Source of the DNA: Squalus acanthias
Lineage: Eukaryota
Assembly (NCBI GenBank): GCA_030390025.1
Contig: JASTWF010000333.1
Span: forward strand, 62,001 to 126,000
Reading direction: 5' to 3'
DNA: 64,000 nt
Position 1 is the stretch's first letter; every line of letters starts with the position of its first letter. A model generated the notes under the pieces. It saw only the letters and a list, made by a program, of their open reading frames with translations, made no database searches and was not told the DNA's origin. Made by a program: the position numbers and the translations under genes. Of this stretch, positions 1 through 59,254 are shown one piece after another.

Positions 1-1790
1 GTCTTAGTTATGGCGCAGGCATGTGGTCGGAAGCTTATTTCAGGGTCAAATATGACACCAAGGTTGTGAACAGTCTGGTTCAGTCTCAGACAGTTGCCAG
101 GGAGAGGGATGGAGTCAGTGGCTAGGGAACGGAGTTTGTGGCAGGGACCGAAAACAATGGCTTCGGTCTTCCCAAAATTTGATTGGAGAAAATTTCTGCT
201 CAACTGGATGTCGGACAAGCAGTCTGACAATTTAGAGACTGTGGAAGGGTCGAGAGAAGTGGTGGTGAGGTAGAGCTGGGTGTCGTCAGCGTACATGTGG
301 AAACTGACGCTGTGTTTTCGGATGATGTCGCCAAGGGGCAGCATGTAGATGAGAAATAGGAGGGGGCCAAGGATAGAACCTTGGGGGACCCCAGAGGTAA
401 TGATGCGGGAGCGGGAAGGGAAGCTGTTGCAGGTGATTCTCAGGCTATGATTAGATAGATAAGAATGGAACCAGGCAAGTGCAGTCCCACCCAGCTGGAT
501 GACGGTGGAGAGGCGTTGGAGAAGGATGGAGTGGTCAATCGTGTCAAAGGCTGCAGACAAGTCAAGAAGGATGAGGAGGGATAGTTTACCTTTGTCACAG
601 TCACAAAGGATGTAATTTGTGACTTTGATGAGAGCCGTTTCAGTACTGTGGCAGGGGCAGAAACCTGATTGGAGGGATTCAAACATGGATTTGCGGGAAA
701 GATGGGCACGAATTTGGGAGGCGACAACACATTCATGGACTTTGGAGAGTAAATGGAGGTTGGAGATGAGGCAGTAGTTTGCAAGGACGGAGGGGTCAAG
801 GTTTGTTTTTTTTGAGGAAAGGGGTGATGATGGCAGATTTGAGGGCGAGGGGGACAGTACCTGAGGAGAGAGAACCATTAACAATGTCAGCTAACATGGG
901 AGCCAGAAAAGGAAGTTGCGTGGTCAGCAGTTTGGTGGGAATAAGGTCGAGGGAGCAGGAAGTGGGTCTCATGGACAAGGTGAGCGCGGAGAGGTCATGA
1001 GGGGAGATCGGAGAGAAACTGGAGAAAGATGTGAGTTCAGGGTTAAGGCAGGGGGAACCTTAGAGCCTGGCTATACCTTCCACTACTTACAGGGAGGGTT
1101 CATTTAAGGGTAAGGTGTCATCACCCCTCAGCCAAGTTTCCTTCAGGGCCATGATGTCGATGCAGTCATCCATGATAAGCTCATAGATGGCAAGGGCCTT
1201 GTTCGCAAGTGAACGGACATTCTAGAGGGAGATGCGGAGAGGGCCGGTGATGGCTGCCCCACTGCCAGCATCCACAGGGTCAGCGCTGGGGGGGATGAGT
1301 TGGACGGGGAGGAGAGTGGCAAGATTTGCCCCTAGTGGACGCGCTGGGTGGGAAGATCGGCAAGAGAGTAGGATGGGACAGTTGGGGTTGCTGCTCGTAA
1401 GGAGACAGTGATGAGTGCCTCGATGGGCCCTTCATAGGATGCCAAGAGAGGCACAGAGGGAAGCTGTAAGCTTATCTAAGAGGGAGGCAAGTCTGGCAGG
1501 AGCGTAGGAAGGTCGAAGATTAATGAAGGATTGGGGTAGGGATTTGGGAGGGCAGAGTATCTGAGAGTGGAGAGATGAAAGGAGGCATGACGACAGGAGG
1601 GAGCAGTTAGGGAGAAATAGCGAGAGAAGGAAAAGGGGGAGAAAAAGTGGAAAAGCAGAGCTGAAAAACCAATAGAACCAGTTCAGCAGAGACACAGCCA
1701 CGGTTTAAGTTACAAAACCTTTTAGTAGCAGAGATAGAGACACAGCAGGTAAATCTTACAGTGTAATCCAGTGTAGTGCAGTGCAGAAAC
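1..1790 (-). mobile_element. Degenerate L2-clade LINE (RT and APE fragments, internally deleted; runs off the window edge)
   Basis: Minus strand reads GVPQGSILGP (~362-391), YADDTQLY (~270-293), SLDLIPTKLL...SAIITPFLKK (796-978) and an APE start NVRSLANKALAIYELIMDDCIDIMALKETW (~1130-1220). Frameshifted; 5' limit approximate. Confidence 0.85.
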
Positions 1791-2742
1791 ATAGTCTAGA
1801 TGTCCAGAGACGTCCAGGAGATCGGAAACCAATTTGACAAAAGAATTCTGCATCATAAGACTTGAAGCGACTGAAGAGCAGAGCAGAGCCACAGCCGCTG
1901 AGTCAAACAGTGTAGTCGAGCAACGAAGTCCTGTTCATGAGGAATCCAGTGATGGAAGTCAAGTTCCGGCATTTGAAAGAGCTCAGTGAGAACAAAGACT
2001 TGCCAGGGGATGGGCAGTGGACTCTGCAGGGGTAGCATTAAACTTGTGGTTTGAACTTGTAGTTTGGGCTGAAATGCCTTCACTATCAGAGGCAGGGTAT
2101 CTTAAGCAATGGAAGAAAGGAGATTGGGGGAAGAAAGGGCAAAGTACGGCAATGGATGACCAAGGATAGTGTTGAAGAGAAGAGCAGCTCAGTAAGGAGC
2201 TGCCAGCCCAGGAGCCACCTTGAACAGCAGATGAAAACAGCAAGAAGTGTTGAAAGTGTTGAAAAGCAATATTACTGCTTCAGAAAGTCTGCAAAACCCA
2301 TTTGCAACAACTTTAAATTGTCTGTTTAATGATTTTGAAAGTGCTGCTCTATGCCAGAATGAATTTCCCATTCAACTTCAACAATGACCATGTTGGAACT
2401 CTCAGAACCAGGATCCTCCACAAAGCTAGGCTTAGTCATACTCAAGGCTGCGCCAATTATCTAGCTGGGCTGGCAATCAAAGCGACTTGAAGAATATTTA
2501 ACTGGCGAATCAGTCAATTATATAGAGGAAAGTAATAATGGAGAACAGCCGTTCCTGGTGAAACACAATTGTTGAGGGTTCACTTGGGATCTCTGACTAC
2601 AGCAGATCTCTGACCTGACAAATTAAGTTGTACATAAACACAGCATGTTATACAGAGGCTGATGTATTTTACTTTGCTTAAATCATTCTAGAATTGTAGG
2701 CATGTTGCTTCTGTTCATGTTTCAAACCCCAAGCTTTAGGAG

Positions 2743-3629
2743 AAAAATGAGAAGTCGCACAACACCAGGTTATAGTCCAACAGTTTTATTTAAAATTACG
2801 AGCTTTTGGAGCTCCGCTCCTTCTTCAGGTAAAGGTACAGTGAGGGAATCTATTACACAGTATATATACACAGAGAACAATTTGTCTGCAGAGATACAAT
2901 CTGTTAGGGAGGCATTACATCAAAGACACATCAGAGTACAGCTAAGACAATGAGGTGGGTCACAGGGGGTCCAACGTGTCAAATGCTGCCGTCTGCAGTT
3001 AAGCTTTTAACTTTTTTTTTGTGTTTTTATTTAAAAACTGGAAAGACAGACAACGATGTCGAGTCACATTCTGTAGCGTGACATGAACCCGAGATTCCTA
3101 TTGAGGCCGTCCTCATGGGTGCGGAACTTGGCTATCAGTTTCTGCTCGATGATTTTGCGTTGTCGTGTGTCTCGAAGGCCACCTTGGAGAACGCTAACCC
3201 GCAGATCCGAGGCTGAATGTCCTTGACTGCTGAAGTGTTCCCCGACTGGGAGGTAAAAATCCTGCCTGGCGATTGTTGCGCGGTGTCCGTTCATACGTTG
3301 TCTCAGTGTCTGCATGGTCTCGCCGATGTACCATGCCGCGGTGCATTCTTTCCTGCAACGTATGAGGGAGACAACGTTGGCCGAGTCACATGAGTATGTA
3401 CCATGTACCTGGTGGGTAGTGTCCTCACGTGTGATGATGGTATCTGTGTTGATGATCTGGCATGTCTTGCAGAGGTTGCCGTGGCAGGGTTGTGTGGTGT
3501 CGTGGTCGCTGTTCTCCTACAAAAGCTACGAAAGCTCGTAATTTTAAATAAAACTGTTGGAGACTATAACCTGGTGTTGTGCGACTTCTCATTTTTGTCC
3601 ACCCCAGTCCAACACCGGCATCTCCGCAT
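2743..3629 (-). mobile_element. 5'-truncated Penelope-like element (GIY-YIG endonuclease 3' part) with inverted pLTR pieces
   Basis: Minus ORF 3064-~3515: PCHGNLCKTCQ...SCDSANVV...WYIGETMQTLRQRMNGHR. Inverted repeat ~2743-2805 vs ~3531-3596. Flanking direct repeat CAAGCTTTAGGAG at 2730-2742 and 3630-3642. Confidence 0.9.
2797..2832 (-). ncRNA. Minimal hammerhead-ribozyme-like motif in the Penelope pLTR (probably mutated)
   Basis: Minus strand CTGAAGA-A-GGAGC-gga-GCTCC-AAAA-GCTC. Stem II pairs perfectly. GAAA reads AAAA here but CGAAAGCTC in the second copy (~3529-3537). Confidence 0.6.
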
Positions 3630-13953: not shown

Positions 13954-14842
13954 GGGGGAGAAATTCAGTATCGCCCCATTTGGGGCGCAATTATCGACCG
14001 GGCGCAAAGATTAGTGCCTGGTGCTAATTATCGCCACCGACTGCAAACTTGACTTTTATCGCCCCTGGAGGTGATTGGAGCGCTAAATCAGGCGCTTCAC
14101 ACCTGTCTTAAGGTGCAAAGGCCGAGGAGCGAGGCGCTACCTCAGAGCGCTGGCGAAGCTCATGTAATGTCAGTCAGCAATGGAACACACACACAATGGC
14201 ACGGGCCAGTTCTTAAAGGGGATAGTTAATCTTGCTTTCCATCCACATCCTGCTCATTGCAGCCTTGAATCTCGGCCTGGAGAGACCTGCACATCAAATC
14301 TGCTGGAAAGAACAATGGAGAGTACCAGGCAAAGAGCTCAGAGTGCAGCCCCCACAGTCTCTTCTAAATCGATACAAGGAATGGCAAATCAAAATGAACC
14401 TGCAAAGTGCTGCTCAGTACCCAAAACTCCTTCACACAACGTTGAATCTCTCCAGAAGTCTCTCTCTCTCTCAGAATGCGTAGTTCAAAAATGGCACCAA
14501 CAATAAAAGGCAGGAAGCGGTCACCTTTAAATAGCGCTCCCCCTTTCCCTTCATGACTGCAGAACGCTCCCCTCAACCTGTCGTTGCTAGCGTCAAGCAG
14601 TAAGGCAGGAGGCGCCACTCAATATCCGCTCCGGGGCGATACCGGGGCATTGCGCACTCGACTGACGTCACGATCTGCCAGCGCAGGAGATCGTGGCGGT
14701 AGTGTTTAGCGCCGCCGCAAAATGTCTAGTTAATTTCGCGAGCGGTGCAAACTTTGCCGTGCCTGGACGCTAGATGCTTTGTGCCCCATTAGCGCCCTCT
14801 TAAGACGCTAACGGGAGGCGCAACCAACTAAATTTTTCCCCC
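13954..14842. mobile_element. Harbinger-derived MITE, family M1 (889 bp)
   Basis: TIRs GGGGGAGAAATT / AATTTTTCCCCC, TSD TTT; homologous to 29220-30043 and 41418-~41975. Confidence 0.9.
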
Positions 14843-15218
14843 TTTGTGTCTGTCTTCACGCAAGAAGATGCAAAAAACTTCCCGGAAATAATGCACAACC
14901 AAGGGTCTAGCGAGAATGAGGAACTGAAAGAAATGAGTATTTGTAAAAAAATAATACTGGAGCAATTAATGGAACTGAAAGCCTTTAAATCCCCTGGACC
15001 TGATGGCCTACATCCTAGGGTTTTGAAAGAGGTGGCTATAGAGATAGTGGATGCATTGGTTGTCATTTTCCAAAATTCCATAGATTCTAGAACGGTTACC
15101 GAGGATTGGAAGGTAGTAAATGTAACCCCACTATTTAAGAAAGGAGGGAGAGAGAGAACAGGGAACTACAGACCAGTTAGCCTGACATCAGTAGTAGGGA
15201 AAATGCTAGAATCTATTA

Positions 15219-18200
15219 TTTTTTTTTCTTCGTTTATGGGATCAGGGCGTCGCTGGCAAGGCCAGCATTTATTGCCCATCCCTAGTTGCCCTTGAGAAGG
15301 TGATGGTGAGCCGCCTTCTTGAACCGCTGCAGTCCATGTGGTGAAGGTGCTCCCACAGTGCTATTAGGTAGGGAGTTCCAGGATTTTGACCCAGCGACGA
15401 TGAAGGATCGGCAATATACTTCTAAGTCAGGATGGTGTGTGACTTGGAGGGGAACTTGGAGGTGGTGGTGTTCCCATGCGCCTGCTGCCCTTGTCCTTCT
15501 AGGTGGAAGAGGTCGCGGGTTTGGGAGGTGCTGCCAAATAAGCCTTGGCGAGTTGCTGCAGTGCATCTTGTAGATGGTACACACTGCAGCCACTGTGAGC
15601 CGATGGTGGAGGGAGTGAATGTTTAAGGTGGTGGATGGGGAGCCAATCAAGCAGGCTGCTTTGTCCTGGATGGTGTCGAGCTTCTTGAGTGCTGTTGCAG
15701 CTGCACTCATCCAAGCAAGTGGAGAGTATTTCATCACACTCCTTACTTGTGCCTTGTAGATGGTGGAAAGGCTTTGGGGAGTCAGGAGGTGAGACACTCG
15801 CCACAGAATACCTAGCCTCTGACCTGCTCTTGTTGCCACGGTATTTATGTGGCTGGTCCAGTTAAGTTTCTGGTCAATGGTGACCCCCAGGATGTTGATG
15901 GTGGGGATATCACCGATGGTAATGCCGTTGAATGTCATGCGGAGGTGGTTAGACTTTCGCTTGTTGGAGATAATCATTGCCTGCCACTTCTGTGGCGCGA
16001 ATGTTACCTGCCACTTATCAGCCCAAGCCTGAATGTCGTCCAGGTCTTGTTGCATGCGGGCATGGACTGCTTCATTATCTGAGGAGCTGCGAATGGCACT
16101 GAACATTGTGCAGTCATCAGCGAACATCCCCACTTTTGACCTTATGTTGGAGGGAAGGTCGTTGATGAAGCAGCTGAAGATGGTTGGGCCTAGGACACTG
16201 CCCTGAGGAACTCCTGCAGCAATGTTCTGGGGCTGTGATGATTGACCTTCAACCACCACAACCATCTTCCTTTGTGCCAGGTATGACTCCAGCCAGTGGA
16301 ACGTTTTCCACCCGATTCCCATTTACTTCAGTTTTACTAGGGCTCCTTGATGCCACACTCGGTCAAATGCTGCTTTGATGTCAAGGGCTGTCACTCTCAC
16401 CTCACCTCTGGAATTCAGCTCCTTTGTCCATGTTTGGACCAAGGCTGTAATGAGGTTGGGAGCCGAGTGGTCTTGGCGGAACCCAAACTGGGCATCAGTG
16501 AGCAGGTTATTAGTGAGTAAGTGCCGCTTGATAGCACTGTTGATGACACCTTCCATCACTTTGCTGATGATTGAGAGTAGACTGATGGGGCGGTAATTGG
16601 CCGGATTGGATTTGTCCTGCTTTTTGTGGACAGGACATACCTGGACAGTTTTCCACATTGTCGGATAGATGCCAGTGTTGTAGCTGTACTGGAACAGCTT
16701 GGCTAGAGGCGCAGCTAGTTCTGGAGCACAAATCTTCAGCAAGATAGCCGGGATGTTGTCGGGGCCCATAGCCTTTGCTGTATCCAGTGCGCTCAGCCGT
16801 TTCTTGATATCACATGGAGTGAATCAAATTGGTTGAAGACTGGCTTCTGTGATAGTGGGGACCTCGGGAGTAGGCCAATATGGATCATCCACTTGGCACT
16901 TCTGACTGATTTTGGTTGCAAACGCTTTAGCCTTGTTTTTTGCACTCACGTGCTGGGCTCCACCATCATTGAGGATGGGGATATTCATGGAGACTCCTCC
17001 TCCCGTTAGTTGTTTAATGGTCCACCACCATTCAAGACTGGATGTAGCAGGACTACAGAGCCCTGTCTATAGCATGCTGCTTCCGTTTTTTAGCATGCAT
17101 GTAGTCCTGTGTTGCAGCTTCCCCAGGTTGGCACCTCATTTTTACATACGCCTGGTGCTGCTCCCGGCATGCTCCTCTACACTCCTTATTGAACCAGGGT
17201 TGGTCCCCTGGCTTGATGGTAATGGTAGAGTGAAGGATATGCTGGGCCATGAGGTTACAGATTGTGGTGGAATACAATTCTGCTGCTGCTGATGGCCCAC
17301 AGCGCCTCATGGATGCCCAGTTTTGAGCTGCTAGATCTGTTCTGAATCTATCCCATTGAGCACAGTGGTAGTGCCACCCAACACGATGGAGGGTGTCCTC
17401 AGTGTGAAGACGGGACTACGTCTCCACAATGGCTGTGCAGTGGTCACTGCTATCAATGCTGTCATGGACAGATGCATCTGCGACAGGTAGATTGATGAGG
17501 ATGAGGTCAAGTAGGTTTTTCCATCATGTTGGTTCTCTCACCACCTGTCGCAGGCCCAGACTGGCAGTTCTGTCCTTCAGGACTAGGCCAGTTCGGTCAG
17601 CAGTGGTGCTACCGAGCCACTCTTGGTGATGGACATTGAAGTCCCCCACCCAGAGTACATTCTGTGCCCTTGCTACTCTCAGTGCTTCTTCCAAGTGGTG
17701 TTCAACATGGTGGAGTACTGATTCATCAGCTGAGGGAGGGCGGTAGGTGCTAATCAGGAGGAGGTTTCCTTGCCCATGCTTGACCTGAAGCCATGAGAGT
17801 TCATGGGGTCCAGAGTCAATGTTGAGGACTCCCAGGGCCACTCCTTCCTGACTGTATAGCACTGTGCCACCACCCCTGGTGGGTCTGTCCTGCCAGTGGG
17901 ACAGGACATACCCAGGGATGGTGATGGAGGAGTCTGGGACATTGGCTGAAAGGTATGATTCTGTGAGTATGACTATCTCAGGCTGTTGCTTGACTAGTCT
18001 GTGGGACAGCTCTCCCAATTTTGGCACAAGTCCCCAGATGTTGGTGAGGAGGACTTTGCAGGGTCGACTGGGCTGGGTGTGCTGTTGCCGTGTCCATAGC
18101 CGGGGCCGAGGTCGATGCCAGGTGGTCCGTCCGCTTTCATTCTTATTATGTTTTGTAGCGGTTAGTTACAACTGAGATGACTTTGACTTGCTAGGCCATT

Positions 18201-18460
18201 TCAGAGGGCAGTTAAGAGTTAACCACATTGCTGTGGGTCTGGAGTCACATATAGTCCAGACCAGGTAAGGACGGCAGATTTCCTTCCCTATGACAATTCG
18301 ATAGTTTCTTGGTCACCATTACTGATACTAGCTTTTTATTCCAGATTTATTTAATTAACTGAATTTAAATTCCCCAGCTGCTGTGGTGGGATTTGAACTC
18401 ATGTCTCTGGATCATTAGTCTAGGTCTCTGAATTACTAACCCAGCAACATTACCACTACC
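15219..18460 (-). mobile_element. Near full-length single-ORF CR1/L2-group LINE (family B; APE + RT) with tRNA-like 5' head
   Basis: APE KVLLTNIWGLVPKLGEL...IVILTES...VGDFNVHH; RT NYRPISLLS, ALDIKAAFDRVWH, GVPQGSVLGP, FADD; 3' AATAAA and A-tail at ~15219-15227; a few stops. Confidence 0.92.
18388..18460 (-). promoter_or_regulatory. tRNA-derived internal Pol III promoter-like head (partial A box, B box)
   Basis: Minus strand GGTAGTGGTAATG (18460-18448) and GAGTTCAAATCCC (18400-18388), matching the B-box consensus GTTCRANNC. Confidence 0.75.
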
Positions 18461-20629
18461 ATAAGGACGTGGTAACAGGGCACTTATAAAATAATAAGAG
18501 GATTGGGCAGAGTCAACACGGATATATGAAAGGGAAATCTGTTAAAGTTTTTTGAGGTTGTAGCTAGCAGAATAGATAAGGGGGAACCAGGGGATGTGGT
18601 GTATTTGGATTTTCAGAAGGCATTCGATAAGGTGCCACACAAGAGGTTATTAAACAAAATTAGGACTCATGGGATTGGGGGTAATATACTAGCATGGATT
18701 GAGGATTGGTTAACACACAGAAAACAGAGTAGGAATAAACGGGTCATTTTCGAGTTGGCAGGCTGTAAATAGTGGGGTACCGCAAGGATCAGTGCTAGTG
18801 CCTCAGCTATTCACAATCTACACCAATGATTTGGATGAGGGGACCAAATGTAATATATCCAGGTTTACTGATGCAAGGAGGCTACAAGGGGATATAGACA
18901 GGCTAAGTGAGTGGGCAAGAACATGGCAAATGGAATATAATGGTAGGAAAAATAGAAAAGCAGAGTATTTTTTAAATGGTGAGAGATTGGGAAAAGTTGG
19001 TGTTCAGAGGTACCTGGATGTCCTTGTGCACGAATCACTAAAAGTTAACATGCAGGTACAGCAAGCAATTAGGAAAGCAAATGATATGTTGGCCTTTATT
19101 ACAAGAGGATTTGAGTAATGAGTAAAGACGTCTTACTGCAATAATATAGGGCCCTGGTGAGACCACGCCTGGAGTATTGTGTACAGTTTTGGTCTCCTTA
19201 ACTAAGGAAGGATATACTTGCCATAGAGGGAGTGCAACGAAGGTTCTCCAGACTGGTTCCTGGGATGGGGGGATTGTCCTATGAGGACGGATTGAGTTGA
19301 CTAGCCCTATATTCTCTAGAGTTTAGAAGAATGAGAGGTGATTGCATTGAAGCATACAAAATTCTTACAGGGCTTGACAGGGTAGATGCAGGGAGGATGT
19401 TTCCCCTGGCTGGGGAGTCTAGAACTAGGGGTCACAGTCTCAGAATAAGGGGTCGGCCATTTAGGACTGAGATGAGGAGAAATTTCTTCACTCAGAGGGT
19501 GGTGAATCTTTAGAATTCTCTACCCCAGAGGGCTGTGGAGGCTCAGTCGTTGAGTATATTCAAGACAGAGATCGATGGATTTTTGAATATTAAGGGATTT
19601 AAGGGATATGGGGATAGTGCAGGAAAGTGGAGCTGAAGTAGAAGATCAGCCTTGATCTTATTGAATGGCGGAACAGGCTTGAAGGACCAAATGGTCTACT
19701 CCTGCTCCTATTTCTTATGTTCTCTTCCTCTAATGTAAATACAGACGCAAAATAACTATTCAACATGTCCGCCATTTCCTTATTGTCATTGACAATATTA
19801 CCGTTATCAGTTTTCAAGGGGCCAACATTGCTCCTGACCACCCTCTTTTTCCTTATATAATTGTAAGAAATCTTTGTGTTGATTTTGAGATCCCTTGCAA
19901 GTTTCTTTTCATACTCCCTTTTTGTAGCTCTTACTGACTTTTTTGTGACCCTTTGCTGTTCTTTGTATCTTTCCCATTTGCCAAGATCATTGCTATTTTT
20001 TGCATTTTTGTATGCTTTTTCTTTTAGTTTTATGTTGTCTCTTACCTCTTTAGTCATCCATGACTGTTTTTTTGACAAGTAGAGCTCTTGCCCCTAAGGA
20101 TTATAATCTGGTGCTGTATCACATTAAATTCTTTTTAGAATATCTCCCACTGATCTTCTGTCATTTACCCATTAACAGATTTGCCCAGTTTACTGTGGAC
20201 AGTCTCTGTCTCATCGCATTGAAGTCAGCCTTACCTAAATCTAGAATCTTAGTAGCTGTTTCATGTTTCTCCCTTTCAAACACTACTTTGAACTCAATCA
20301 TGTTAAGATCGCTATTAGATCAATGTTCACGCACAGTTAGGCTGTTAACTAAATCTGGCTCATTATATGATGACACCAAGCATTGATGCTTTGCTTTTTT
20401 ATTCCCAGCTGTCAGCACACTTTTAGCTGTGTTTTCATTACTGATGGTGCATTCCTTTGCTAGTTATTTGCCATTTACCTCAATAAGTTCTGTAATATAA
20501 CTGAAAGGGCTGGATTTTCCTCCACTATCCCAACCCCAAATCAGGCAGAATAGTGTCAGAATTGACAGTAAAGTGGAGAGGTGAAGCCTACTAGCACCTC
20601 CACACCCTGATCTCGATTTTCCTCCTTTC

Positions 20630-20828: not shown

Positions 20829-23800
20829 GGAGGAGAAATTGGGTTCTGTAGTGCCCGTTTTTAGGCGCTAATCAGCCTCCTAAAGGTCGAGAATTGGGTC
20901 CTACATTGGTGTGCACACTTTCGACGGGAAGTGCGCTGGACAGTAGTTTGCGTGTGCACACACCACTGGCAGCATGCAGAGCAGGTAGATTGTGACGTCA
21001 ATCAGTGCACAACGCTGATTTGACACCAGCAGTACCATTTTTGAACACCACGCTCCAGCCTACGCCCACTCTTAACCTCCCACAGCTAAACACGCATTCA
21101 ATGGCATGAAGGACCCCCCACCTGCACTGCTTAAAGGGATGATGAACTACTTACAGATTAGTTGCTGGTTTATTTCTCCTGGCTGCTGGTACAATTCTAC
21201 ATGTTTTTGGAGCTTTCTTATACTTGTCTGAAGTTTCAATACTCTACAGGGAGTGGTGTGGCTGGTGCTCAAGTACTTTTTTGGTGGTTTAAAAACTTGT
21301 GCTGAAACAAATTACTTCCAGACGTGGGTGGCCTGGTAGGCCTTCCTCTTGGAATTGAGCATGACTGGAAAAATGAAGAGAGGCCACGCAGAGCAGGACA
21401 AGGGAGGAGGAGGAGAAGGGCTCTCAGCAGGAGGCCATATCCGCCCAGGGTCTTCAGGAAGCAATTCTCTTAACTAAACTACAGTGAGGAACAGTGCATG
21501 AGGTGTTTTCGCTTCAATAACGAGGTTGTGGCTGAAATCTGCCAACTGCTGCAGCCACAACTGGAACCTCAAAGCAGGGCAAGGACCGCATTGCCTGTGG
21601 CTGTCAAGGGGACCATGTCTCTTAACGTTAATGCGTCTGGCTCCATCCAGGCTGCTGCTGAAGATATAAGCAACATCTTGCAGTTTGCAGTATACTGCTG
21701 CATAAGGGAGGTCACTGAGACTCTCTATACACAGCGAGACAGCTTCATCTCATTCCCTCTTGCCAGAGACAAGCAGGTGGAGCGAGCATGAGTGTTTGTT
21801 GGATTGCAGGCTTCCCCATGGTGCAGGGTGCCATTGACTGCATGTACATTGCTTTGCGTGTGCCTCATGTGAACTCGGCCATTTTCATGAACCAAAAGGG
21901 ATTCCACTCCCTCAATGTGCAGCTGGCATGCGACCACAGGCAGCACATCATGCAGGTGAATGCCCGTTATCTTGGCAGTAGTCATGATTCCTTCATTCTG
22001 CAGCAGTCTTCTATGCCACATGTATTAGACCCACCACGGCAAGTCAAAGGCTGGTACTGGGCAACAAGGTTTATCTACCATAACTCTGGTCTGGGACATT
22101 ATAGAGCACACCATCGGCATCCTCAAGCAACGCTTCTGCTGCCTGGACCACTCTGGAGGAGCCCTACAGTACTTAGCTGAGCAGGTATGCTGCATGCTAC
22201 ACAACTTGGTCATTATGAGGGAACAACCCTTGCCACCACTTATCAGGAGAGAAGCTGCAGAGCAGGAGCACGAGGAAGAGGAGGAGGAGGAAGTGGAGAA
22301 GGAGCAAGTGCAACAGGAAGTGGAGGAACATGAAGAGGAAGGGAGAATACAACGTAGACAGCCCCTTTCTGCCCAGGGTCTATGTGATTAAATATTTCAT
22401 GAGCGGTACTAGTAACCTCAAATACACCTCCCCATTCACCAACAGTCCCACACTCCACACCTTTCCTCTATGACTGACCATGACATCGTAGTCTTTCCAA
22501 CAACACAAAAATAAAAGCCACCAGAAAATGTACATTCCAATCCAAATTTATAAATTAAATCATGACATAATGCATACAAAAATAAACTAATCACCCTTGT
22601 GCATTTCCTTAGTGCCTCTTTCCTGTGCCTTTGCCTCTCCTAGTGCTCCTTCGAGGTGCTTCCCCAATGTCTGCAGCATGGCTGACCTTGAATTGAGAAG
22701 ACTGCAGATGGCCTTGGAGGGCAACCTCGAGCAACTCTGGACCTAAAAGGCCCGGCTTCAGACTGTATCATCTCAGCCTGGGGTGCAGCAGTCTGGGCTG
22801 GCTGGCTGACAGGCAATAGCAAAGGCACTGGTAGAGATGCAGGAGTGGGAGTACAAATGCAGTCATCCGGAGAGAGGACAGCAGGTTTGTGCTCCATAGT
22901 GCCACTGCCACACTCCCGGGGCGGTGCCTCAACAATACTAGTAACCTGTTGGAGAACAGATTGATGGACTGCTGTGATGCCCTGGAAAACCCCTTTGAAC
23001 ACTGGTATCCAGAGCCATGATGGCAGCAGTCTGAGCTTCCATGCAGCCCTCAGACCTTTGGTAGAAGCTGCTTGTGCTGCAGTGGACGCTGTGACATCGG
23101 CTTCAGATGCTGCATCATGCTGGGTTCCACAGGTGTGCTGATGGAGCTGACCACCTGTTCCATGTTGGAAAGGATGGGGTCCAAGCTCTGCACAAAGCCC
23201 TGTGCCAAGTTGGTGCTGGACTCCTCCATGCTCCTTGACATTGAGTGCAGGCTTTCTGGCAGGCTTTCCAGTGCACCAAGCATTTGGGTGTGTACACCCA
23301 TCAGCCTTCTTCTATAGCTTGGCCCATCGATGATGTCCTCATCTGACTCCTCTGCAGCAGAACTAGTGTGTGACCTCGCCCTCCGGTGAGCTGGCACCTG
23401 CGCTATCCTTTCCTCCTGCCCTGGCTCCTGCCATCTTGTGCCCAGTGTCTCACCATGTCCAGGGCACTCCTCTATCCTAGCCTTTAAAATACTGGCAGTT
23501 CAGTATCTGAGCTGGTAAGATTGAGTGAAGGTGTCTCTTCATCTTCACTGTCTTCTTCCTGTTCCTCCACTGACTGGGCAGGTTCCAGTTCTTGGATATC
23601 TGAAATGAAAAAGGGACAAGGATTGGGTTGTGGTGAGGGGAGAGGAGAAAGTAAGAAGTGTGTGCTTACACCATCGGAAGCTTCTAAGTCAGAAGAGATT
23701 GAGGAATGAGGGAGAAGTGGGATGAGAGGAGGAGGATTAGGTATGCGGATACTCTCATCATCAATTGCTTCAGCGCTGCCAGTGGCCATTCCCATGATGG

Positions 23801-32240: not shown

Positions 32241-33980
32241 GGCCGAGATTTTGCTCACCTCGGCGGGTCTGGTGCGGCCGATGTCGGTGGCGGGTCACGG
32301 CCCCACTGTTGGCTCCATCCCGCTGCCGAAAATGAACTTACCTCAATGGGGCTTGTTAAGCCCACCCAGCACTTTTCCCTGCCCAATTAGATGAAGCAGG
32401 TCTGGTGACATCATTCATGACACATCTTGAGCCTGTTTCCTTAAAGGGACCATGGCCACCTTACTTTTGATGTTTGTGCTGTCAGTGTTCAACAGCATTG
32501 AAGTGCGGCAAACACTGACAATCACTACACAGAGGTGCAGGGCTGCACCTAGGTTCTTCCATGACTCCCTCTATATAAATATGGAGGGAGTCAGAGCACA
32601 CAGGGAGGTCCTCTTCCCTTCCGATGAGTGGAAGAGACCTCCCCAGGAGACCAAGACAGCCTGGTTGCACATTGCAGAGGAGGTTACAAGCAGGGATGTC
32701 GTCAGGAGGACCTGGGTGCAGTACCACAAACGTTTCAATGATCTCATCTTCATCCTGCTGTGCCTCTCATCACAGCCCCATCACTCTGCCTTCCCTACCC
32801 TACTCCTGCACATCCTTACTCACACCAACTTACCTTGCACCTCCATCCATCCCTCTCTCTCTCTATCTACATTATCACATCCACATCTCACTAGACACCC
32901 CTCACACTCACCCTTATCCTACTGCAATCATACCAACTAACAACACACAAGGGTAGCCACTTGGGTATTTTATCCAATGTTCATGTAAAGTTTCTGTTAA
33001 TGTGCTGTCAAACATTGAAACCTTTATTTTCAACACTTTGCGTTCTTGGACAGATTTGTGTGCACCTTTAGAAGTGGCTTAGTGAGTTGCAGTGAATGGT
33101 GAGACATAACGTTACCCCCTGCAATGGTGATGAGTATGAAAGGAATGGCTTGGACATTGTAGGGATGCTTTGTGATGGTGGTGTGGGGTGGTGCCAACCT
33201 GGCACATCATGTGGCAGCCAGGGTGTACAGTGTCAAGTGAAGTAAATCTGGCCATGGTGAGGTCATCCCTGTGCTCAGGTGCTGATGCCCTCTATCCTGT
33301 GCAGCATCAGGTGATTGTGGAAAAGGTTGGTGTTGTTGTTGGTGCTGCTGCTGTGCCTGGTATTGCTGGTGTTGGGGCTAATCGTGGTCAGATTCTGTGG
33401 ACCAAGGTGAAACAGTATAAACGGTACCCATGCTGATGGAATAGATGGCAGGTGAAGTTGAGATGACAGAAGCGATCTGTCAATGGTGAGAGAGGCTGTT
33501 CCAATGAGGTGACACTGGAAGGAGAGTTTGCTCCAAACACTTGCAACCTGCATAAAGATCAATCTGTGTTCCAAATGGAGTCAGCAACAGCTTTTGCGCT
33601 TGGAAAGTGAACAGCTGTGAGGTGGGAGCTTTTATAATACATTTCAAGCTGTCAACTAATCAACTGATTCAATGGCTATTCAACTCCCGCCTCAGGTTAA
33701 CAAACATGGTCCATGCGCAGCGTGGACCCCATGGGCGAGCAGTTAAAGTGAAAAGGTAAGGTTAAAACCATTATTAAGTGTCTGTCAACAAGCCAATAAT
33801 TGCTTTAATTGGGTCACCCGCCTCTGCGCGTCGGTTCCGATCCGAGATCACAGACACGCCATTGGGAAAGGCGTGTTGGAGCGAGATGACAGCAGGTTCT
33901 CGACCCACTGTCAAAAAAATCAAATTTCCCACCCAACCCGCCACCGATCCTGCCCGCTGAACCCCCGGAAAATTCCGGCC
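32241..33980 (+). mobile_element. Non-autonomous Harbinger, family D (1.74 kb) with Myb exon 1 relic
   Basis: TIRs GGCCGAGATTTT / AAAATTCCGGCC, TSD AAA; RAAPRF...AWLHIAEEVTSRDVVRRTWVQYHKRFNDL. Confidence 0.9.
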
Positions 33981-34948
33981 AAAGAGTTTGTCCACACACT
34001 AATTGTAGTAAAGATGTAAATGCATTCTTTATAAACAGGTTGATAATTTTGGCCATAGCTGTGTACAAAGGAACTCTCTTCAATGTCCCCCGACCAGGCA
34101 ACTTTCCATCTATTGGTAACTCACAGTAACATACCCCCATGCAGCAAATGAGATTCTAAATGTAAAGCCATATCTTGTCAGTGTTGAAGCTGGTTCTCAT
34201 TTTCTGGCACAGAGTTACAGTGGTGGTAATGCTCTCGGTCAATGAATCAGAAATAGTAATTAATGCAATTAGTGGTTTGGCGGATCCGATTAACTAAAGC
34301 CCCAGTGCATCTTCTGAATAATTATGTGATATGTATGGAGCTTCAGAGTGCAAGTTTAGCATCACTGTAATGTGTTATCTGCTTTGCACCAAAGTTGCAG
34401 TTTGCAGCAGCGGTGGATTTAGACATTGATGAAGGGAAATGTGAGTCCCAAAGGTGTAAGATTTATTGCCTTGGGGCATGGCTCAGCCAGAGATAATTTT
34501 GATTTTTGACACTTTATTTGGTACGTTTTCTGTCATTTTGGAGCCTACTGGAATTTATCCTAGATAGGTGACAGATACTTTATATATGAAAAGCAAGGTA
34601 GTTGCAGGCATTTAAGTCTAACTTTATAAGATCCAGTTCCCTTTCATTGGGACTGTAACCCTAAATATATCAAATGAATTTGTGAACTGAAATCTTTTGC
34701 CATAAACACTGACAATAATCCTGACTTCCAGTGGATTCTACACTCACAAGACAAAGTCGGCTGACTAACAGCGTGCGTACCACAGTGAAACAGTTCTCTC
34801 ACAAGCCTCATGGTTAGAAATGGTGGAATCAATGAAAAATTGTGGCAAAAAAAGTAGTGTGGCAATGAATAAATAATGCCTGAATGTGGAAAAAAGTACT
34901 GAATTTTCAGCAACAGAAGAATCCTCCCCCTCACCCACAAAAAAATCT

Positions 34949-36491
34949 TTTTTTTAATCGTTTATGGGATGTGGGCGTCGCTGGCAAGGCCAGCATTTAT
35001 TGTCCATCCCTAATTGCCCTTGAGAAGGTGGTGGTGAGCTGCCTTCTTGAACCGCTGCAGTCCGTGTGGTGAAGGTACTCCCACAGTGCTGTTAGGTAGG
35101 GAGTTCCAGGATTTTGACCCAGCAACAATGAAGGATCAGCGATATATTTCCAAGTCAGGATGGTGTGTGACTTGGAGGGGAACTTGGAGGTGGTGGTGTT
35201 CCCATGCGCCTGCTGCCCTTGTCCTTCTAGGTGGAAGAGATCGCGGGTTTGGGAGGTGCTGCCGAAGAAGCCTTGGCGAGTTGCTGCAGTGCATCTTGTA
35301 GATGGTACACACTGCAGCCAAGATACGCCGGTGGTGGAGGGAGTGAATGTTTAAGATGGTGGATGGGGTGCCAATCAAGTGGGCTACTTTGTCCTGGATG
35401 GTGTCAAGCTTCTTGAGTGTTGTTGGAGCTGCACTCATCCAGGCAAGTGGAGAGTATTTCATCACACTCCTTACTTGTGCCTTGTAGATGGTGGAAAGGC
35501 TTTGGGGAGTCAGGAGGTGAGACACTCGGCGCAGAATACCTAACCTCTGACCTGTTCTTGTTGCCACAGTATTTATGTGGTTGGTCCAGTTTCTGGTCAA
35601 TGGTGACCCCCAGGACGTTGATGATGGGGGATTCGGCAATGGTAATGCCGTTGAATGTCAAGGGGTGGTGGTTAGACTCTCGCTTGTTGGAGATAGTCAT
35701 TGCCTGGCACTTCTGTGGCACGAATGTTACCTGCCACTTATCAGCCCAAGCCTGAACGTCATCCAGGTCTTGTTGCATGGGGGCATGGACTGCTTCATTA
35801 TCTGAGAAGTTGTGAATGGCGCTGAACACTGTGCAGTCATCAGTGAACATCCCCACTTCTGACCTTATGTTGGAGGGAAGGTCATTGATGAAGCAGCTGT
35901 AGATGGTTGGGCCTAGGACACTGCCCTGAGGAACTCCTGCAGCGATGTCCTGGGGCTGTGATGATTGACCTTCAACCACCACAACCATCTTCCTTTGTGC
36001 TGGGTATGAGTCCAGCCAGTGAGAGTTTTCCCCCCGATTCCCATTGACTTCAGTTTTACTAGGGCTCCTTGGTGCCACACCCGGTCAATGCTGCCTTGAT
36101 GTCAAGGACAGTCACTCTCACCTCACCTCTGGAATTCAGCTCATTTATCCATGTTTGGACCAAGGCTGTAATGAGGTTGGGAGCCAAGTGGTCTTGGCGG
36201 AACCCAAACTGGGCATCAGCGAGCAGGTTATTGGTGAGTAAGTGCCGCTTGATAGCACTGTTGATGACACTTTCCATCACTTTGCTGATGATTGAGAGTA
36301 GACTGATGGGGCGGTAATTGGCCAGATTGAATTTGTCCTGCTTTTTGTGGACAGGACATACCTGGGCAGTTTTCCACATTGTCGGATAGATGTCAGTGTT
36401 GTAGCTGTACTGGAACAGCTTGGCTAGAGGCACGGTTAGTTCTGGAGCAGAAGTTTTCAGTACGATAGCCGGGATCTTGTCGGGGCCCGTA
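34949..36491 (-). mobile_element. 5'-truncated family B LINE
   Basis: Near-identical to ~15220-16770; 12-bp TSD ACAAAAAAATCT (34937-34948, 36492-36503). Confidence 0.92.
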
Positions 36492-40585: not shown

Positions 40586-40834
40586 TGTCGGGAGGGGGAT
40601 CGTGAAGAAGTTAAGTTGAGCGTTAAGCTTTTAATTTTTATTGTAGTTTTCCTTGTGGGCCAGGAGGAACAGGAGTGCTGTTCCGGACCCCACAAAGGAA
40701 GCCTTGGGCCTCTCTTAACACGGGCTTCCCCCAATCGCATCCACCCCCCTTCCCCCTCTTACCACTTAACTGACTGCTGGGGACCGATCTCACGGGTCCC
40801 CGGCTACGGCCTCCTGTCTGCAATCTTCCTTAAC

Positions 40835-50460: not shown

Positions 50461-51414
50461 AGAGCATGAATTTTCCAATGAGTATTATTTTAAAGCTGGC
50501 AGAAATCCATTTACATGCCTCACCGCCAGTACTAAAATAATGGGAATTAGAAAATCCAGGCTTCGGTTTCTATGTAGGCCTCTTGACATAAGTTGCTGTA
50601 GTTTTTTGTCTTGCACACATTAATTCTGTTCAATTGCTATTTTACTGTTCCAAAAACTATTAACTTGCTGCCAGGCGTAGGATTAACCATGCAATTATAG
50701 AATATTAGCATTCTGATAAATAACCATAACAAGCTGGAAATAAAGCTCTTTATTCCAATAAGTCACCATCTAAAAATTCTTCCATGCCTTACACATATCC
50801 CATAGGCCATTGGGTAAATGACTTTGCTTATAGGATAAATGTAACACGTGGAGGAATTTCCAGTTATGCGGTAATATTAACAGCAGAGCCAATTGGAATA
50901 TACCAATTGTAACTGAACAAAGCAGGAAACCCAGATACATAGAGGCAGAGTGGGCCTCATGCTGGGAAGAGAGGCAATATCAAGGAGCACCTCTATTTTC
51001 CCCTTTTTTTTGGAACAAAAGTACATTTTTGCTTACAAAGAGAGACGTGGGAGGAGGTTGTTCAAAGACTGAAAATAATCTTCTGTAGCAAAAGCAACTG
51101 GCATGATTTCCAGAATCTGTTGTCTTTTACTATAAAAACAAAGCATCAATCAGAGGAAGAGCCCAAGCCGATAAGAACCAACATAAGACGTCAGTCGAGG
51201 CACGAGTGCACCAACTATTTAGCCTAGAAACGTCTGTTAAATGGGAAGATCCTTTCACCATAATTTTGCAAAAAGACATTTTTCATTTCATTTTTGTATT
51301 CATGAAAAGCTGTCTCACAATGTGAAGAATGAAATTAGATATTTTATGTTGGTCCCAAGTCATTTTGGTCAATCCTTCATTGTACTTATGGTGATATGAT
51401 TATATTCTCAATTT

Positions 51415-51613
51415 TTTTTAAATTCATTTATGGGATGTGAGCGTCGCTGGCAAGGCCAGCATTTATTGCCCATCCCTAATTGCCCTCGAGAAGGTGGTGG
51501 TGAGCCACCTTCTTGAACCGTTGCAGTCCGTGTAGTGAAGGTACTCCCACAGTGCTGTTATGGAGGGAGTTCCAGGATTTTGACCCAGCGACGATGAAGG
51601 ATCGGTGATATAC
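51415..51613 (-). mobile_element. Short 3' fragment of family B LINE
   Basis: Same 3' end as 15219; CAATTT on both flanks. Confidence 0.88.
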
Positions 51614-57514: not shown

Positions 57515-59176
57515 TTTTTAAAAATTCGTTTATGGGATCAGGGCATCGCTGGCAATGCCAGCATTTATTGCCCATCCCTAGTTGCCCTTGAGAAGGTGGT
57601 GGTGAGCCGCCTTCTTGAACCGCTGCAGTCCGTGTGGTGAAGGTACTCCCACAGTGCTGTTAAGTAGGGAGTTGCAGGATTTTGACCCAGCGACGATGAA
57701 GGATCGGCGATATACTTCTAAGTCAGGATAGTGTGTGACTTGGAGGGGAACTTGCAGGTGGTGGTGTTCCCCTGTGCCTGCTGCCCTTGTCCTTCTAGGT
57801 AGAAGAGGTCGCGGGTTTGGGAGGTGCTGCCAAAGAAGCCTTGGCAAGTTGCTGCAGTGCATCTTGTAGATGGTACACACTGCAGCCACGGTACGCCGGT
57901 GGTGGAGGGAGTGAATGTTTAAGGTGGTGGATGGGGTGCCAATCAAGCGGGCTGCTTTGTCCTGGATGGTGTTGCGCTTCTTCAGTGTTGTTGGAGCTGC
58001 ATTCATCCAGGCAAGTGGAGAGTATTTCATCACACTCCTTACTTGTGCCTTGTAGATGGTGAAAAGGCTTTGGGGAGTCAGGAGGTGAGACACTCACCGC
58101 AGAATACCTAGCCTCTGACCTGCTTTTGTTGCCACGGTATTTATGTGGCTGGTCCAGTTAAGTTTCTGGTCAATGGTGACCCCCAGGATGTTGATGGTGG
58201 GAGATTCAGCGATGGTAATGCCGTTGAATGTCAAGGGGAGGTGGTTAGACTCTTGCTTGTTGGAGATAGTCATTGCCTGGCACATCTGTGGCGCGAATGT
58301 TACCTGCCACTTATCAGCCCAAGCCTGAATGTCGTCCTGGTCTTGTTGCATGCGGGCATGGACTGCTTCATTATCTGAGGAGTTGCGAATGGCACTGAAC
58401 ATTGTGCAGTCATCAGCGAACATCCCCACTTCTGACCTTATGTTGGAAGGAAGGTCATTGATGAAGCAGCTGAAGATGGTTGGGCCTAGGACACTGCCCT
58501 GAGGAACTCCTGCAGCGATGTCCTGGGGCTGTGATGATTGACCTCCAACAACCACAACCATCTTCCTTTCTGCTAGGTATGACTCCAGCCAGTGCAGCGT
58601 TTTCTCCCTGATTCCCATTGACTTCAGTTTTACTAGGGTTCCTTGATGCCACACTCTGTCAAATGCTGCCTTGATGTCAAGGGCAGTCTCTCTCACCTCA
58701 CCTCTGGAATTCAGCTCCTTTGTCCATGTTTGGACCAAGGCTGTAATGAGGTTGGGAGCCAAGTGGTCTTGGCGGAATCCAAACTGGGCATCCGTGAGCA
58801 GGTTATTGGTGAGTAAGTGCCGCTTGATAGCACTGTCGATGACACCTTCCATCACTTTGCTGATGATTGAGAGTAGACTGATGGGGCGGTAATTGGCCGG
58901 GTTGGATTTGTCCTGCTATTTGTGGACAGGACATATATGGGCAGTTTTCCACATTGTCGGATAGATGCCAGTGTTGTAGCTGTACTGGAACAGCTTGGCT
59001 AGAGGCACGGCTAGTTCTGGAACACAAGTCTTTAGCACGATAGCCGGGATGTTGTCGGGGCCCGTAGCCTTTGCTGTATCCAGTGCGCTCAGCCGTTTCT
59101 TGATATCACATGGAGTGAATCGAATTGGCTGAAGACTGGCTTCTGTGATGGTGGGGACCTCGGGAGTAGGCCGATA
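57515..59176 (-). mobile_element. 5'-truncated family B LINE
   Basis: RT ORFs 58094-58855 and 57578-58093 are near-identical to 15282-16769. Confidence 0.92.
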
Positions 59177-59254
59177 TGCTGCTGGAAATATTACCGGTTC
59201 GACATTCAGCCTATTTATATGATATTACTCTCCCCACTATTTTAGTCGAGGTGT

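What the first reader, a model, noticed from the sequence alone, without database searches (positions are those of the whole stretch)
15219..18460. Candidate RNA polymerase III-transcribed autonomous LINE: tRNA-like head joined directly to a single APE-RT ORF
Seen: the whole 3.24 kb unit sits in one breakpoint of a host CR1 (MLESII|KDVVTGHL), so head and ORF arrived together. The 5' end has A/B-box-like motifs (GGTAGTGGTAATG; GAGTTCAAATCCC at 18400-18388). About 300 nt of SINE-like body follows, then the endonuclease, with no ORF1 and no intervening A-tail. Known: tRNA-derived SINEs use internal Pol III promoters, while LINEs are normally Pol II transcripts. Inference: this family may be a protein-coding retrotransposon run from a SINE-type promoter, and internal deletions of it would be ready-made SINEs. 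Only one copy here keeps the 5' end.
Basis: partly seen in the sequence, partly recalled or inferred. Interest (0 to 1): 0.9.

Follow-up and report, generated by a model that had tools for sequence, protein, structure and literature searches.

The report
Jumping gene with a tRNA-type start
A shark-type genome carries a family of protein-coding jumping genes (LINEs) whose full-length copies all begin with the tRNA-like promoter head normally found only on short non-coding SINEs, which suggests, without proving, that RNA polymerase III makes this long coding RNA.

Summary
Window 15219-18460 (minus strand) is one inserted unit: tRNA-derived head, about 240 nt of leader, then an endonuclease-reverse-transcriptase reading frame and an A-tailed end.

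In the 3.7-Gb genome, 48 separate loci carry head, leader and reading frame without a break. Of 27 copies chosen by the reading frame alone, 9 reach one shared 5' end (GGGAACGGTAGC...), 18 are cut short at scattered points, and none runs into another leader or a large ORF1.

The window copy lacks the first 11 nt, including half of box A, and its reading frame is broken. "No ORF1" needs correcting: a 48-codon mini-frame overlaps the long frame.

Short forms made of head, body and tail exist here and in four other sequencing runs.

Polymerase III use is not shown. Three sequence features favour it:
- Boxes A and B sit at the 5' end.
- No shared run of four or more T occurs in 3.2 kb of sense strand, while 14 related LINEs and 13 neighbouring LINE segments have about 3 per kb.
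- A T-run lies at the very 3' end in 16 of 34 copies.

My eight literature searches found no description of such an element. Repbase and Dfam could not be searched.

The parts
15219..18460 (-). One copy of the headed LINE: 3242 nt, 5'-truncated by about 11 nt, reading frame broken.
   Evidence: It differs from the family majority at 4.0% of aligned columns.
18378..18460 (-). tRNA-derived head. The family form is 11 nt longer at its 5' end.
   Evidence: Rfam tRNA scores 16.1 bits here and 21.5-26.5 bits on 6 of 6 complete heads elsewhere.
18448..18460 (-). Remnant of box A (GGTAGTGGTAATG). The family box A is TAGC(G/A)TAGTGG, starting at +9 of the full element.
18388..18400 (-). Box B (GAGTTCAAATCCC; fits GWTCRANNC).
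   Evidence: Intact in 25 of 27, 8 of 11 and 28 of 28 headed copies of the three sets.
18407..18444 (-). Two tandem anticodon-arm-like hairpins. The family form is CTGGGCTAGTAATCCAG and CTGGACTAATGATCCAG. The duplication widens the spacing between box A and box B.
   Evidence: Read from the alignments.
18141..18377 (-). Leader, which is also the SINE 'body'. It is shared with the short head-body-tail forms up to about 18165.
17994..18140 (-). Mini-ORF1: ATG plus 48 codons and a stop, overlapping the long frame.
   Evidence: 23 of 61 copies have exactly 48 codons. The commonest state is ATG, 48 codons and the long frame in register +2 (13 of 61).
15282..18165 (-). Long endonuclease-reverse-transcriptase frame. 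It would be about 960 codons if unbroken and is in five pieces here. No ATG occurs in its register before the endonuclease domain.
15228..15321 (-). 3' tail shared by long and short forms. It contains AATAAA at 15268-15273.
15219..15227 (-). Terminal A-run. Other copies have T(n) then A(m) here. This copy has no T.
34948..36491 (-). 5'-truncated copy of the same family (element positions 1691-3241).
57525..59178 (-). 5'-truncated copy (element positions 1579-3232). Its tail reads GAATTTTTAAAAA.
51413..51613 (-). Tail-only fragment (element positions 3042-3242).
14804..15218 (+). Left half of the host LINE frame that the insertion splits.
18461..19118 (+). Right half of the host LINE, which is reverse-transcriptase-like.

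Best explanation
This is one decayed copy of an abundant family of about 3.3-kb single-long-ORF LINEs, RTE-like in layout, in a cartilaginous-fish genome. The retrotransposing unit of the family begins with a tRNA-derived, SINE-type head.

Shown:
- Head, leader, endonuclease-RT frame and tail move as one unit.
- Full-length copies end at one defined 5' nucleotide, 8 nt upstream of a canonical box A.
- Internal deletions of the unit give SINE-like short forms.

Inferred as the most likely mechanism:
1. RNA polymerase III starts at the first nucleotide, directed by the internal A and B boxes.
2. It reads through the whole 3.2 kb, because the sense strand carries no run of four or more T.
3. It stops at a T-run at the very 3' end.
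4. The RNA is then A-tailed, as in mammalian T+ SINEs.
5. The uncapped RNA is translated by a cap-independent route, as proposed for ribozyme-processed RTE and R2 elements, and is copied back into DNA by its own protein.

The confidence given is for the whole statement including the Pol III steps. The structural part alone I put at about 0.9.
For: Family unit:
- Three genome searches gave 22 of 28, 10 of 27 and 16 of 28 non-self loci with head and reading frame contiguous. That is 48 distinct loci. Duplicates were removed.
- In the set chosen by reading-frame sequence only, 9 of 27 start at family position 1-3 (L055 counted as full). Two start inside the head. Sixteen are scattered between positions 87 and 431.
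- Upstream flanks are unrelated to each other.

Promoter:
- Box A, TAGC(G/A)TAGTGG, is at +9. Box B, GAGTTCAAATCC, is at about +72.
- The tRNA model finds all 6 of 6 complete heads, below threshold.

No internal terminator:
- 98 copy segments totalling 140.7 kb of sense strand hold only 16 runs of four or more T (0.11 per kb), against 205.8 expected from base composition. None is shared by 3 or more copies. Runs of four or more A number 768.
- 13 other LINE coding segments of the same genome have 31 in 10.7 kb, against 27.3 expected.
- 14 related LINE frames from metagenome contigs have 121 in 33.8 kb, against 126.1 expected. Each has at least 2, including two with the same T content of 0.20.
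- Those relatives show no tRNA-like head. ARAGORN finds none in 22 loci. Rfam at E<=1 finds none in 12 loci. No locus has a box A and box B pair upstream.

3' end:
- 16 of 34 copies, chosen by a query that ends before the tail, carry a T-run of 4-11 in the 27-nt tail zone, followed by A's.
- AATAAA lies 47 nt upstream.
- This mirrors the T+ SINE tail. It also fits the shortening of the terminator at each cycle described in PMC8466645 (introduction read).

Translation of uncapped RNA has precedent in this group. PMC5786205 (discussion read) lists self-cleaving ribozymes at the 5' ends of RTE, R2 and other clades. PMC8501958 (passages) reports a 5' ribozyme of an RTE element that raised expression of a downstream reporter.
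Against: - No RNA evidence. No listed run is on record as RNA, and the runs laid are contigs, which cannot show starts or strand.
- The absence of T-runs is only weakly significant under stricter nulls. A dinucleotide shuffle expects 1.8 (P=0.15). A synonymous-codon shuffle expects 1.6 (P=0.16). T-run lengths fall off smoothly: 480, 81, 9 and 0 runs of length 1, 2, 3 and 4 or more.
- The terminal T(n)A(m) could instead be a slipping microsatellite-type tail. The nearest relative, L125, ends in (AAT)n. Also, 18 of 34 copies have fewer than four T.
- AATAAA is 47 nt from the end. PMC10572872 (passage) reports that about 25 extra nt already lowers polyadenylation 2.6-fold.
- Experts regard Pol III as too poorly processive for long elements (PMC10886601, passages), and its transcripts are uncapped.
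- Linkage between head variants and reading-frame variants is weak (z=1.9). The positive control within the reading frame is also weak (z=2.3), so the test has little power.
- No intact long frame was seen among 115 scored copies. The longest open stretch is 874 codons.
Confidence: 0.5

Rival explanations
1. The family is headed, but the long coding RNA is made by RNA polymerase II. It would come from a promoter in the head or leader, or use the head as a Pol II element. In this reading the tRNA-like head is an inherited relic that serves Pol III only in the short deletion forms.
For: LINEs are held to be Pol II transcripts (PMC5786205; PMC10886601). The element has AATAAA and an A-tail. It is long and coding. 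T-run depletion is not significant under dinucleotide or codon-preserving nulls.
Against: The 5' end lies exactly where a Pol III start is expected, 8 nt before box A. T-runs are absent here, but present at the expected rate in all 14 related frames and in 13 neighbouring LINE segments. T-runs sit at the 3' terminus. Two AATAAA and one ATTAAA lie within the first 125 nt of the sense strand, which would be awkward for a Pol II transcript.
Confidence: 0.3
2. The element has no promoter of its own. It is read through from host genes, and the tRNA-like head is a processing signal (an RNase P or RNase Z type cut) that releases a defined 5' end. This would be the role self-cleaving ribozymes play in other RTE and R2 elements.
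For: Ribozyme-defined 5' ends are described for RTE, R2 and others (PMC5786205; PMC8501958). Four of 27 copies start at positions 87-95, just after the head.
Against: The head does not fold as a cloverleaf. The minimum-energy fold is rod-like with z=-1.72. The tRNA model aligns from position 17 or later, not from position 1, and its acceptor pairs are poor. No ribozyme family matched in the window at gathering score. This reading does not explain the lack of T-runs.
Confidence: 0.1
3. The head is acquired again and again. Reverse transcriptase copying a head-less LINE RNA switches onto abundant SINE RNA within the shared leader, so headed copies are recurrent chimeras and not a lineage.
For: Template switching is the accepted way heads are added (PMC5786205). 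Short forms appear about six times as common as LINE 5' parts: 6188 against 1056 first-look candidates. Head-to-frame linkage is weak. A head variant group of 4 copies does not cluster in the reading frame.
Against: No head-less full-length class exists. Among 27 frame-selected copies, the only recurrent 5' end is that of the head. The linkage test has little power, because the control is equally weak.
Confidence: 0.06
4. Chance or nesting artefact. Either a LINE landed inside a SINE at a preferred site, or a SINE landed beside a truncated LINE in this one copy.
For: The layout of SINE 5' part, reading frame, then SINE 3' part is what nesting would give. An earlier scan case in another genome turned out to be nesting (e1-7513394).
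Against: The whole unit sits in one host breakpoint. 48 loci repeat it. 5'-truncated copies carry the same tail but have unrelated DNA upstream, not SINE body.
Confidence: 0.02

Closest known systems
RTE-clade LINEs and their 'bipartite' derivatives that feed SINE bodies (Kojima 2018, PMC5786205; abstract and discussion read)
   Same: A single long endonuclease-RT frame without a large ORF1. Length about 3.2-3.3 kb. Internal-deletion derivatives that keep only the 5' and 3' parts. SINEs built as head, then LINE 5' part, then LINE 3' part.
   Different: In that model the head sits only on the short non-coding derivative, and the LINE is assumed to be a Pol II transcript. Here the complete coding element carries the head. 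Clade membership by RT phylogeny was not tested. The tail is T(n)A(m), not a trinucleotide repeat.
tRNA-derived SINEs (SINE2)
   Same: Head with box A at +9 and box B. A defined 5' end. A tail shared with a LINE. The short forms of this family qualify as SINEs.
   Different: SINEs are defined as short and non-coding. PMC8466645 gives 'usually 150-300 bp', PMC10572872 'shorter than 600 bp', and PMC5786205 says 'SINEs cannot encode a protein'. This unit is 3.3 kb and encodes its own endonuclease-RT.
Mammalian T+ SINEs such as B2, Dip and Ves (PMC8466645; introduction read)
   Same: AATAAA, then a T-run, then oligo(A) at the 3' end. The number of T varies between copies, as expected if each cycle shortens the terminator.
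   Different: T+ SINEs are reported only from mammals and are mobilised by L1. Their AATAAA lies close to the terminator, whereas here it is 47 nt away. Only 16 of 34 copies have four or more T.
R2 and other LINEs not driven by their own Pol II promoter (recalled; touched on in PMC5786205 discussion and PMC8501958 passages)
   Same: A LINE whose RNA would be uncapped and whose 5' end is set by something other than a Pol II start.
   Different: Those elements ride on host transcription (R2 on ribosomal RNA genes) and free themselves with a ribozyme. This family would carry its own internal Pol III promoter and inserts at varied sites.
TRIMp3: Cassandra, Helenus and Ajax (PMC10886601; passages read)
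   Same: Retrotransposons of a class normally read by Pol II that have taken up a small-RNA-derived Pol III promoter.
   Different: Those are short non-coding LTR elements of 311-1263 bp. Their author argues that the autonomous partners must use Pol II.

Membership tests
APE-type LINE (non-LTR retrotransposon) | Apurinic-type endonuclease domain followed by a reverse transcriptase domain in one frame. | tested here: met
   Exo_endo_phos and Exo_endo_phos_2 (E 1e-8) and RVT_1 (E 3e-14 and 4e-17).
APE-type LINE (non-LTR retrotransposon) | Copies share the 3' end and are variably truncated at the 5' end. | tested here: met
   Three truncated copies in the window. 18 of 27 copies are truncated at scattered points.
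APE-type LINE (non-LTR retrotransposon) | Target-site duplications. | tested here: inconclusive
   At most 1-2 nt at the window copy. Possibly about 9 nt at L076, read. No systematic test was made.
Autonomous element (currently able to encode its own protein) | At least one copy with an uninterrupted long frame of about 960 codons. | tested here: not met
   Among 115 non-self matches scored, the longest open stretch is 874 codons. Only the best candidates were scored, so an intact copy is not excluded.
RTE clade | A single long ORF and no L1- or CR1-type ORF1. | tested here: met
   Only a 48-codon overlapping mini-frame lies upstream. [quoted passage not shown] A short overlapping first ORF in RTE-1 is recalled, not checked.
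RTE clade | Placement within RTE in a reverse-transcriptase phylogeny. | not testable with these tools
   No named reference LINE proteins were available. The nearest full-length relatives, P0121 and P0123 (937 and 934 aa, 40-41% identity in the endonuclease), are unnamed.
RTE clade | Gives internal-deletion ('bipartite') non-autonomous forms. | tested here: met
   L073, L076, L078, L083 and L022, plus other deletion forms. Joints skipping about 2.87-2.90 kb occur in all four runs laid.
RTE clade | Microsatellite-like (often trinucleotide) 3' end. | tested here: not met
   The tail is GAA plus T(n)A(m). The relative L125 ends in (AAT)n.
tRNA-derived SINE (SINE2) | tRNA-derived head with boxes A and B at the 5' end. 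| tested here: met
   In the window copy itself box A is half missing.
tRNA-derived SINE (SINE2) | Short and non-coding. | tested here: not met
   The unit is 3.24 kb with endonuclease and RT domains. Only the deletion forms meet this feature.
tRNA-derived SINE (SINE2) | Transcribed by RNA polymerase III. | not testable with these tools
   No run is on record as RNA. Contigs cannot show starts.
T+ type tail | AATAAA, then TCTTT or TTTT, then oligo(A) at the 3' end. | tested here: inconclusive
   AATAAA is present but 47 nt upstream. Four or more T occur in 16 of 34 tails. Oligo(A) is present.
tRNA gene | Passes tRNA detectors. | tested here: not met
   ARAGORN finds none. Rfam tRNA scores 16.1-26.5 bits, below the gathering score of 29.

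The most novel reading that the evidence does not exclude
This is the first autonomous-type retrotransposon built as a complete RNA polymerase III transcription unit. It has an internal A/B-box promoter at its first nucleotides, a 3.2-kb protein-coding body kept free of T-run terminators, and a terminator T-run plus A-tailing at its end. In effect it would be a natural messenger RNA made by Pol III. It would also be the parent from which a major shark SINE arises simply by internal deletion.
Probability: 0.45. Interest if true: 0.92.

Novelty: new variant of a known kind. Interest (0 to 1): 0.8.

Why it matters
The field's working rule is that LINEs are Pol II transcripts and SINEs are Pol III transcripts that cannot code. 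The rule is stated in PMC5786205, PMC10886601 and PMC8466645.

A coding LINE that carries the SINE head as part of its own unit blurs that line. It offers a direct route from LINE to SINE: delete the middle and the promoter and tail are already in place. Current models run the other way and add a head to a deleted LINE.

If Pol III really makes the 3.2-kb RNA, three things would follow:
- Pol III can produce a long translatable RNA in vivo.
- The T-run-free coding sequence would be a visible evolutionary footprint of that constraint.
- It would be a third case, beside Pol I for R2 and Pol II for most others, of the polymerase a LINE can use.

The family is abundant, with thousands of candidates. 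It is present in several elasmobranch runs, so it can be tested at the bench.

Tried and rejected
- RNA evidence. The look-up of sequencing runs listed no holder on record as RNA. The four runs laid are contigs of only guessed kind, so they say nothing about expression, starts or strand.
- Linkage of head variants to reading-frame variants, to show co-inheritance. The signal was weak (z=1.9), and so was the within-frame control (z=2.3). The sampled copies have too little subfamily structure. A head-variant group of 4 copies did not cluster in the reading frame.
- Dating short against long forms. Five SINE-type copies averaged 10.6% divergence and 47 LINE-type copies 7.0%. The sample is too small and the reference is LINE-dominated. 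Which form came first stays open.
- A first census of 5' ends used the window copy as reference. It was misleading at positions 171-187, because this copy has a private deletion there. I redid it with L084.
- Looking for the head in distant relatives. None was found in metagenome contigs. These are single contigs whose true 5' ends are unknown, so absence is weak evidence.
- A cloverleaf fold of the head was not obtained.
- Clade naming from database names. The only names were automatic, such as 'jockey-like' or 'uncharacterized'.
- Literature. Eight full-text searches found no tRNA-headed coding LINE. Repbase, Dfam and subscription journals were not searchable.
Full report
**What is in the window.**

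On the minus strand, 18460 to 15219 is a 3242-nt unit. It contains, in order:
- a tRNA-like stretch with GGTAGTGGTAATG at its start and GAGTTCAAATCCC at 18400-18388;
- about 240 nt of leader;
- an endonuclease domain and a reverse transcriptase domain (Pfam Exo_endo_phos, Exo_endo_phos_2 and RVT_1);
- a tail with AATAAA and nine A.

The host frame on the plus strand reads MLESII up to the A-run and KDVVTGHL from 18463. The whole unit therefore sits in a single breakpoint with at most 1-2 nt duplicated. The host is reverse-transcriptase-like, with sub-threshold RVT_1 matches. I did not verify that it is a CR1.

The long frame of this copy is in five pieces. Three other copies in the window are all 5'-truncated.

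The head is not a tRNA gene by ARAGORN or by Rfam at gathering score. The tRNA model gives 16.1 bits here.

**The head belongs to the family.**

The window lies in a 3.71-Gb assembly of 3882 contigs. The nearest named protein fragments come from sharks: Heterodontus, Heptranchias and Cetorhinus, at about 80% identity. I ran three searches of this genome, each returning 30 loci with 1.5 kb of flank:
- With head plus leader as query, 22 of 28 non-self loci run from the head into the reading frame without a break.
- With the first 110 nt only, 16 of 28 do so. Four are short head-body-tail forms, four have other internal deletions and four are short or unclear.
- With a 361-nt piece of the reading frame only, which is blind to the head, there are 27 non-redundant loci. 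Nine reach the same 5' end, two stop inside the head and sixteen are truncated at scattered positions from 87 to 431. None continues into a different leader or a large first ORF.

I dropped the window itself, a 99.8% twin of it on contig C2, and one duplicate pair. In total, 48 distinct loci show head, leader and frame contiguous.

**The true 5' end.**

Full-length copies begin GGGAACGGTAGC(G/A)TAGTGGTAATG. Upstream of this their flanks are unrelated. Box A (TAGCGTAGTGG, which fits TRGCNNAGTGG) therefore starts at +9. Box B starts at about +72.

The window copy lacks the first 11 nt and half of box A. On six complete heads the Rfam tRNA model scores 21.5-26.5 bits, still below the gathering score of 29.

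The head contains two tandem anticodon-arm-like hairpins, which explains the wide box spacing. It does not fold as a cloverleaf.

**The coding layout.**

In 61 copies covering the start region, the commonest state is an ATG followed by a 48-codon frame (MKPDGPPGIDLG...) that overlaps the long endonuclease-RT frame in another register. 23 of 61 have exactly 48 codons, and 13 of 61 show the full modal state. The long frame has no ATG of its own before the endonuclease.

So 'no ORF1' means no large ORF1. This layout, the 3.3-kb size and the deletion derivatives resemble the RTE clade. PMC13295347 has a passage on the single ORF, and PMC5786205 discusses bipartite derivatives. A short overlapping first ORF in RTE-1 is my recollection only. 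I could not place the reverse transcriptase in a phylogeny.

No intact long frame was seen among 115 scored copies. The longest open stretch is 874 codons.

**Short forms.**

L073, L083, L078, L076 and L022 join the head and leader directly to the tail, each at a different breakpoint. Contigs of four other runs, from four organisms and four studies, show joints that skip about 2.87-2.90 kb between the leader and the tail. First-look candidate counts are 6188 for head plus leader and 1056 for the frame start, so short forms are several times commoner. Which form came first is not settled.

**Does polymerase III make the long RNA?** It is not shown. Three features point that way.

1. The 5' terminus and boxes are placed as in SINEs.
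2. The sense strand lacks terminators.
   - In 98 copy segments (140.7 kb) there are 16 runs of four or more T, against 205.8 expected from composition. None is shared by three or more copies. Runs of A number 768.
   - Thirteen other LINE coding segments from the same genome have 31 in 10.7 kb, against 27.3 expected.
   - Fourteen related LINE frames fetched from metagenome contigs have 121 in 33.8 kb, against 126.1 expected. Each has at least two, and none shows a tRNA-like head.
   - For the ancestral 3.2 kb, zero against about 4.6 expected gives P of about 0.01. That figure assumes composition predicts the count, as it does in the relatives. Under a dinucleotide shuffle P is 0.15, and under a synonymous-codon shuffle 0.16. 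T-runs thin out smoothly with length: 480, 81, 9 and 0 runs of length 1, 2, 3 and 4 or more.
3. The one place where T-runs do occur is the very 3' end.
   - In 34 copies picked by a query that stops before the tail, 16 carry 4-11 T followed by A's.
   - This is the tail type of mammalian T+ SINEs. There Pol III stops in the T-run, the RNA is A-tailed, and the terminator shortens with each cycle (PMC8466645, introduction).

Against this reading:
- The relative L125 ends in (AAT)n, so a slipping tail repeat is possible.
- AATAAA is 47 nt from the end.
- Pol III is thought to be poorly processive.

**Rivals.**

- Recurrent template switching onto SINE RNA is unlikely, because no head-less full-length class exists.
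- Nesting is excluded, because truncated copies carry the tail but have unrelated DNA upstream.
- Pol II use with a relic head remains the main rival.
- An RNase P-like processing role is a minor rival.

**Prior knowledge.**

Eight full-text searches found no coding LINE with a tRNA-type head. The specialist papers read state the opposite expectation. Repbase and Dfam could not be consulted, so a database entry may exist.

**Verdict.**

- The structural claim, a headed coding LINE family with SINE-like deletion offspring, is strong.
- The Pol III mechanism is plausible at about even odds, and it can be tested directly.

Noticed in passing
L002, L032 and L062 (G000 contig C2, about 148.34 Mb) against window 15219-18460 and flanks: A second copy of the same locus, 99.8% identical including the host flanks, lies on a large contig. 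The window's small contig is probably an alternative haplotype or a duplicated assembly of that region.
   Followed up: partly
L039, L043, L044 and L053 (family positions 87-95): Four of 27 frame-selected copies begin within 9 nt of each other, just after the tRNA-like head. This could be reverse-transcriptase stalling at the structured head or cleavage of the RNA there. L053 also repeats CACGGCAGCTG just upstream.
   Followed up: partly
L095, L097, L101, L105, L113, L123; also L014 and L029: A subset of tails has 7-12 T followed by only AAAT, instead of a longer A-run. This may be a distinct tail variant or an expansion of the T-run.
   Followed up: no
window 18290/18291 and about 18181-18187: Relative to the family, this copy has a private 31-nt deletion (AAAACCCATCTGGTTCACTAATGTCCTTTA missing) and a 7-nt insertion in the leader. 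Many contigs of other runs have loose ends at exactly these points.
   Followed up: yes
window 38538-40758 (-), 3-890 (-); L010:2395-3240; L076:437-1099: Other LINE families lie nearby. These include RT-bearing frames and GDSL-lipase or OSK-type ORF1 frames typical of CR1- or L2-like elements. They were used only as controls for T-run density.
   Followed up: partly
window 21719-22177 (+) and 32431-32937 (+): Frames with a DDE_Tnp_4 transposase domain and a Myb/SANT-like DNA-binding domain, probably remnants of DNA transposons.
   Followed up: no
L125 (metagenome contig, 5550 nt), 541-3552: An apparently intact 1004-codon single endonuclease-RT frame with an (AAT)n tail. It is the closest full-length relative that could be read. 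It has no tRNA-like head in the 540 nt upstream and an ordinary T-run density.
   Followed up: partly
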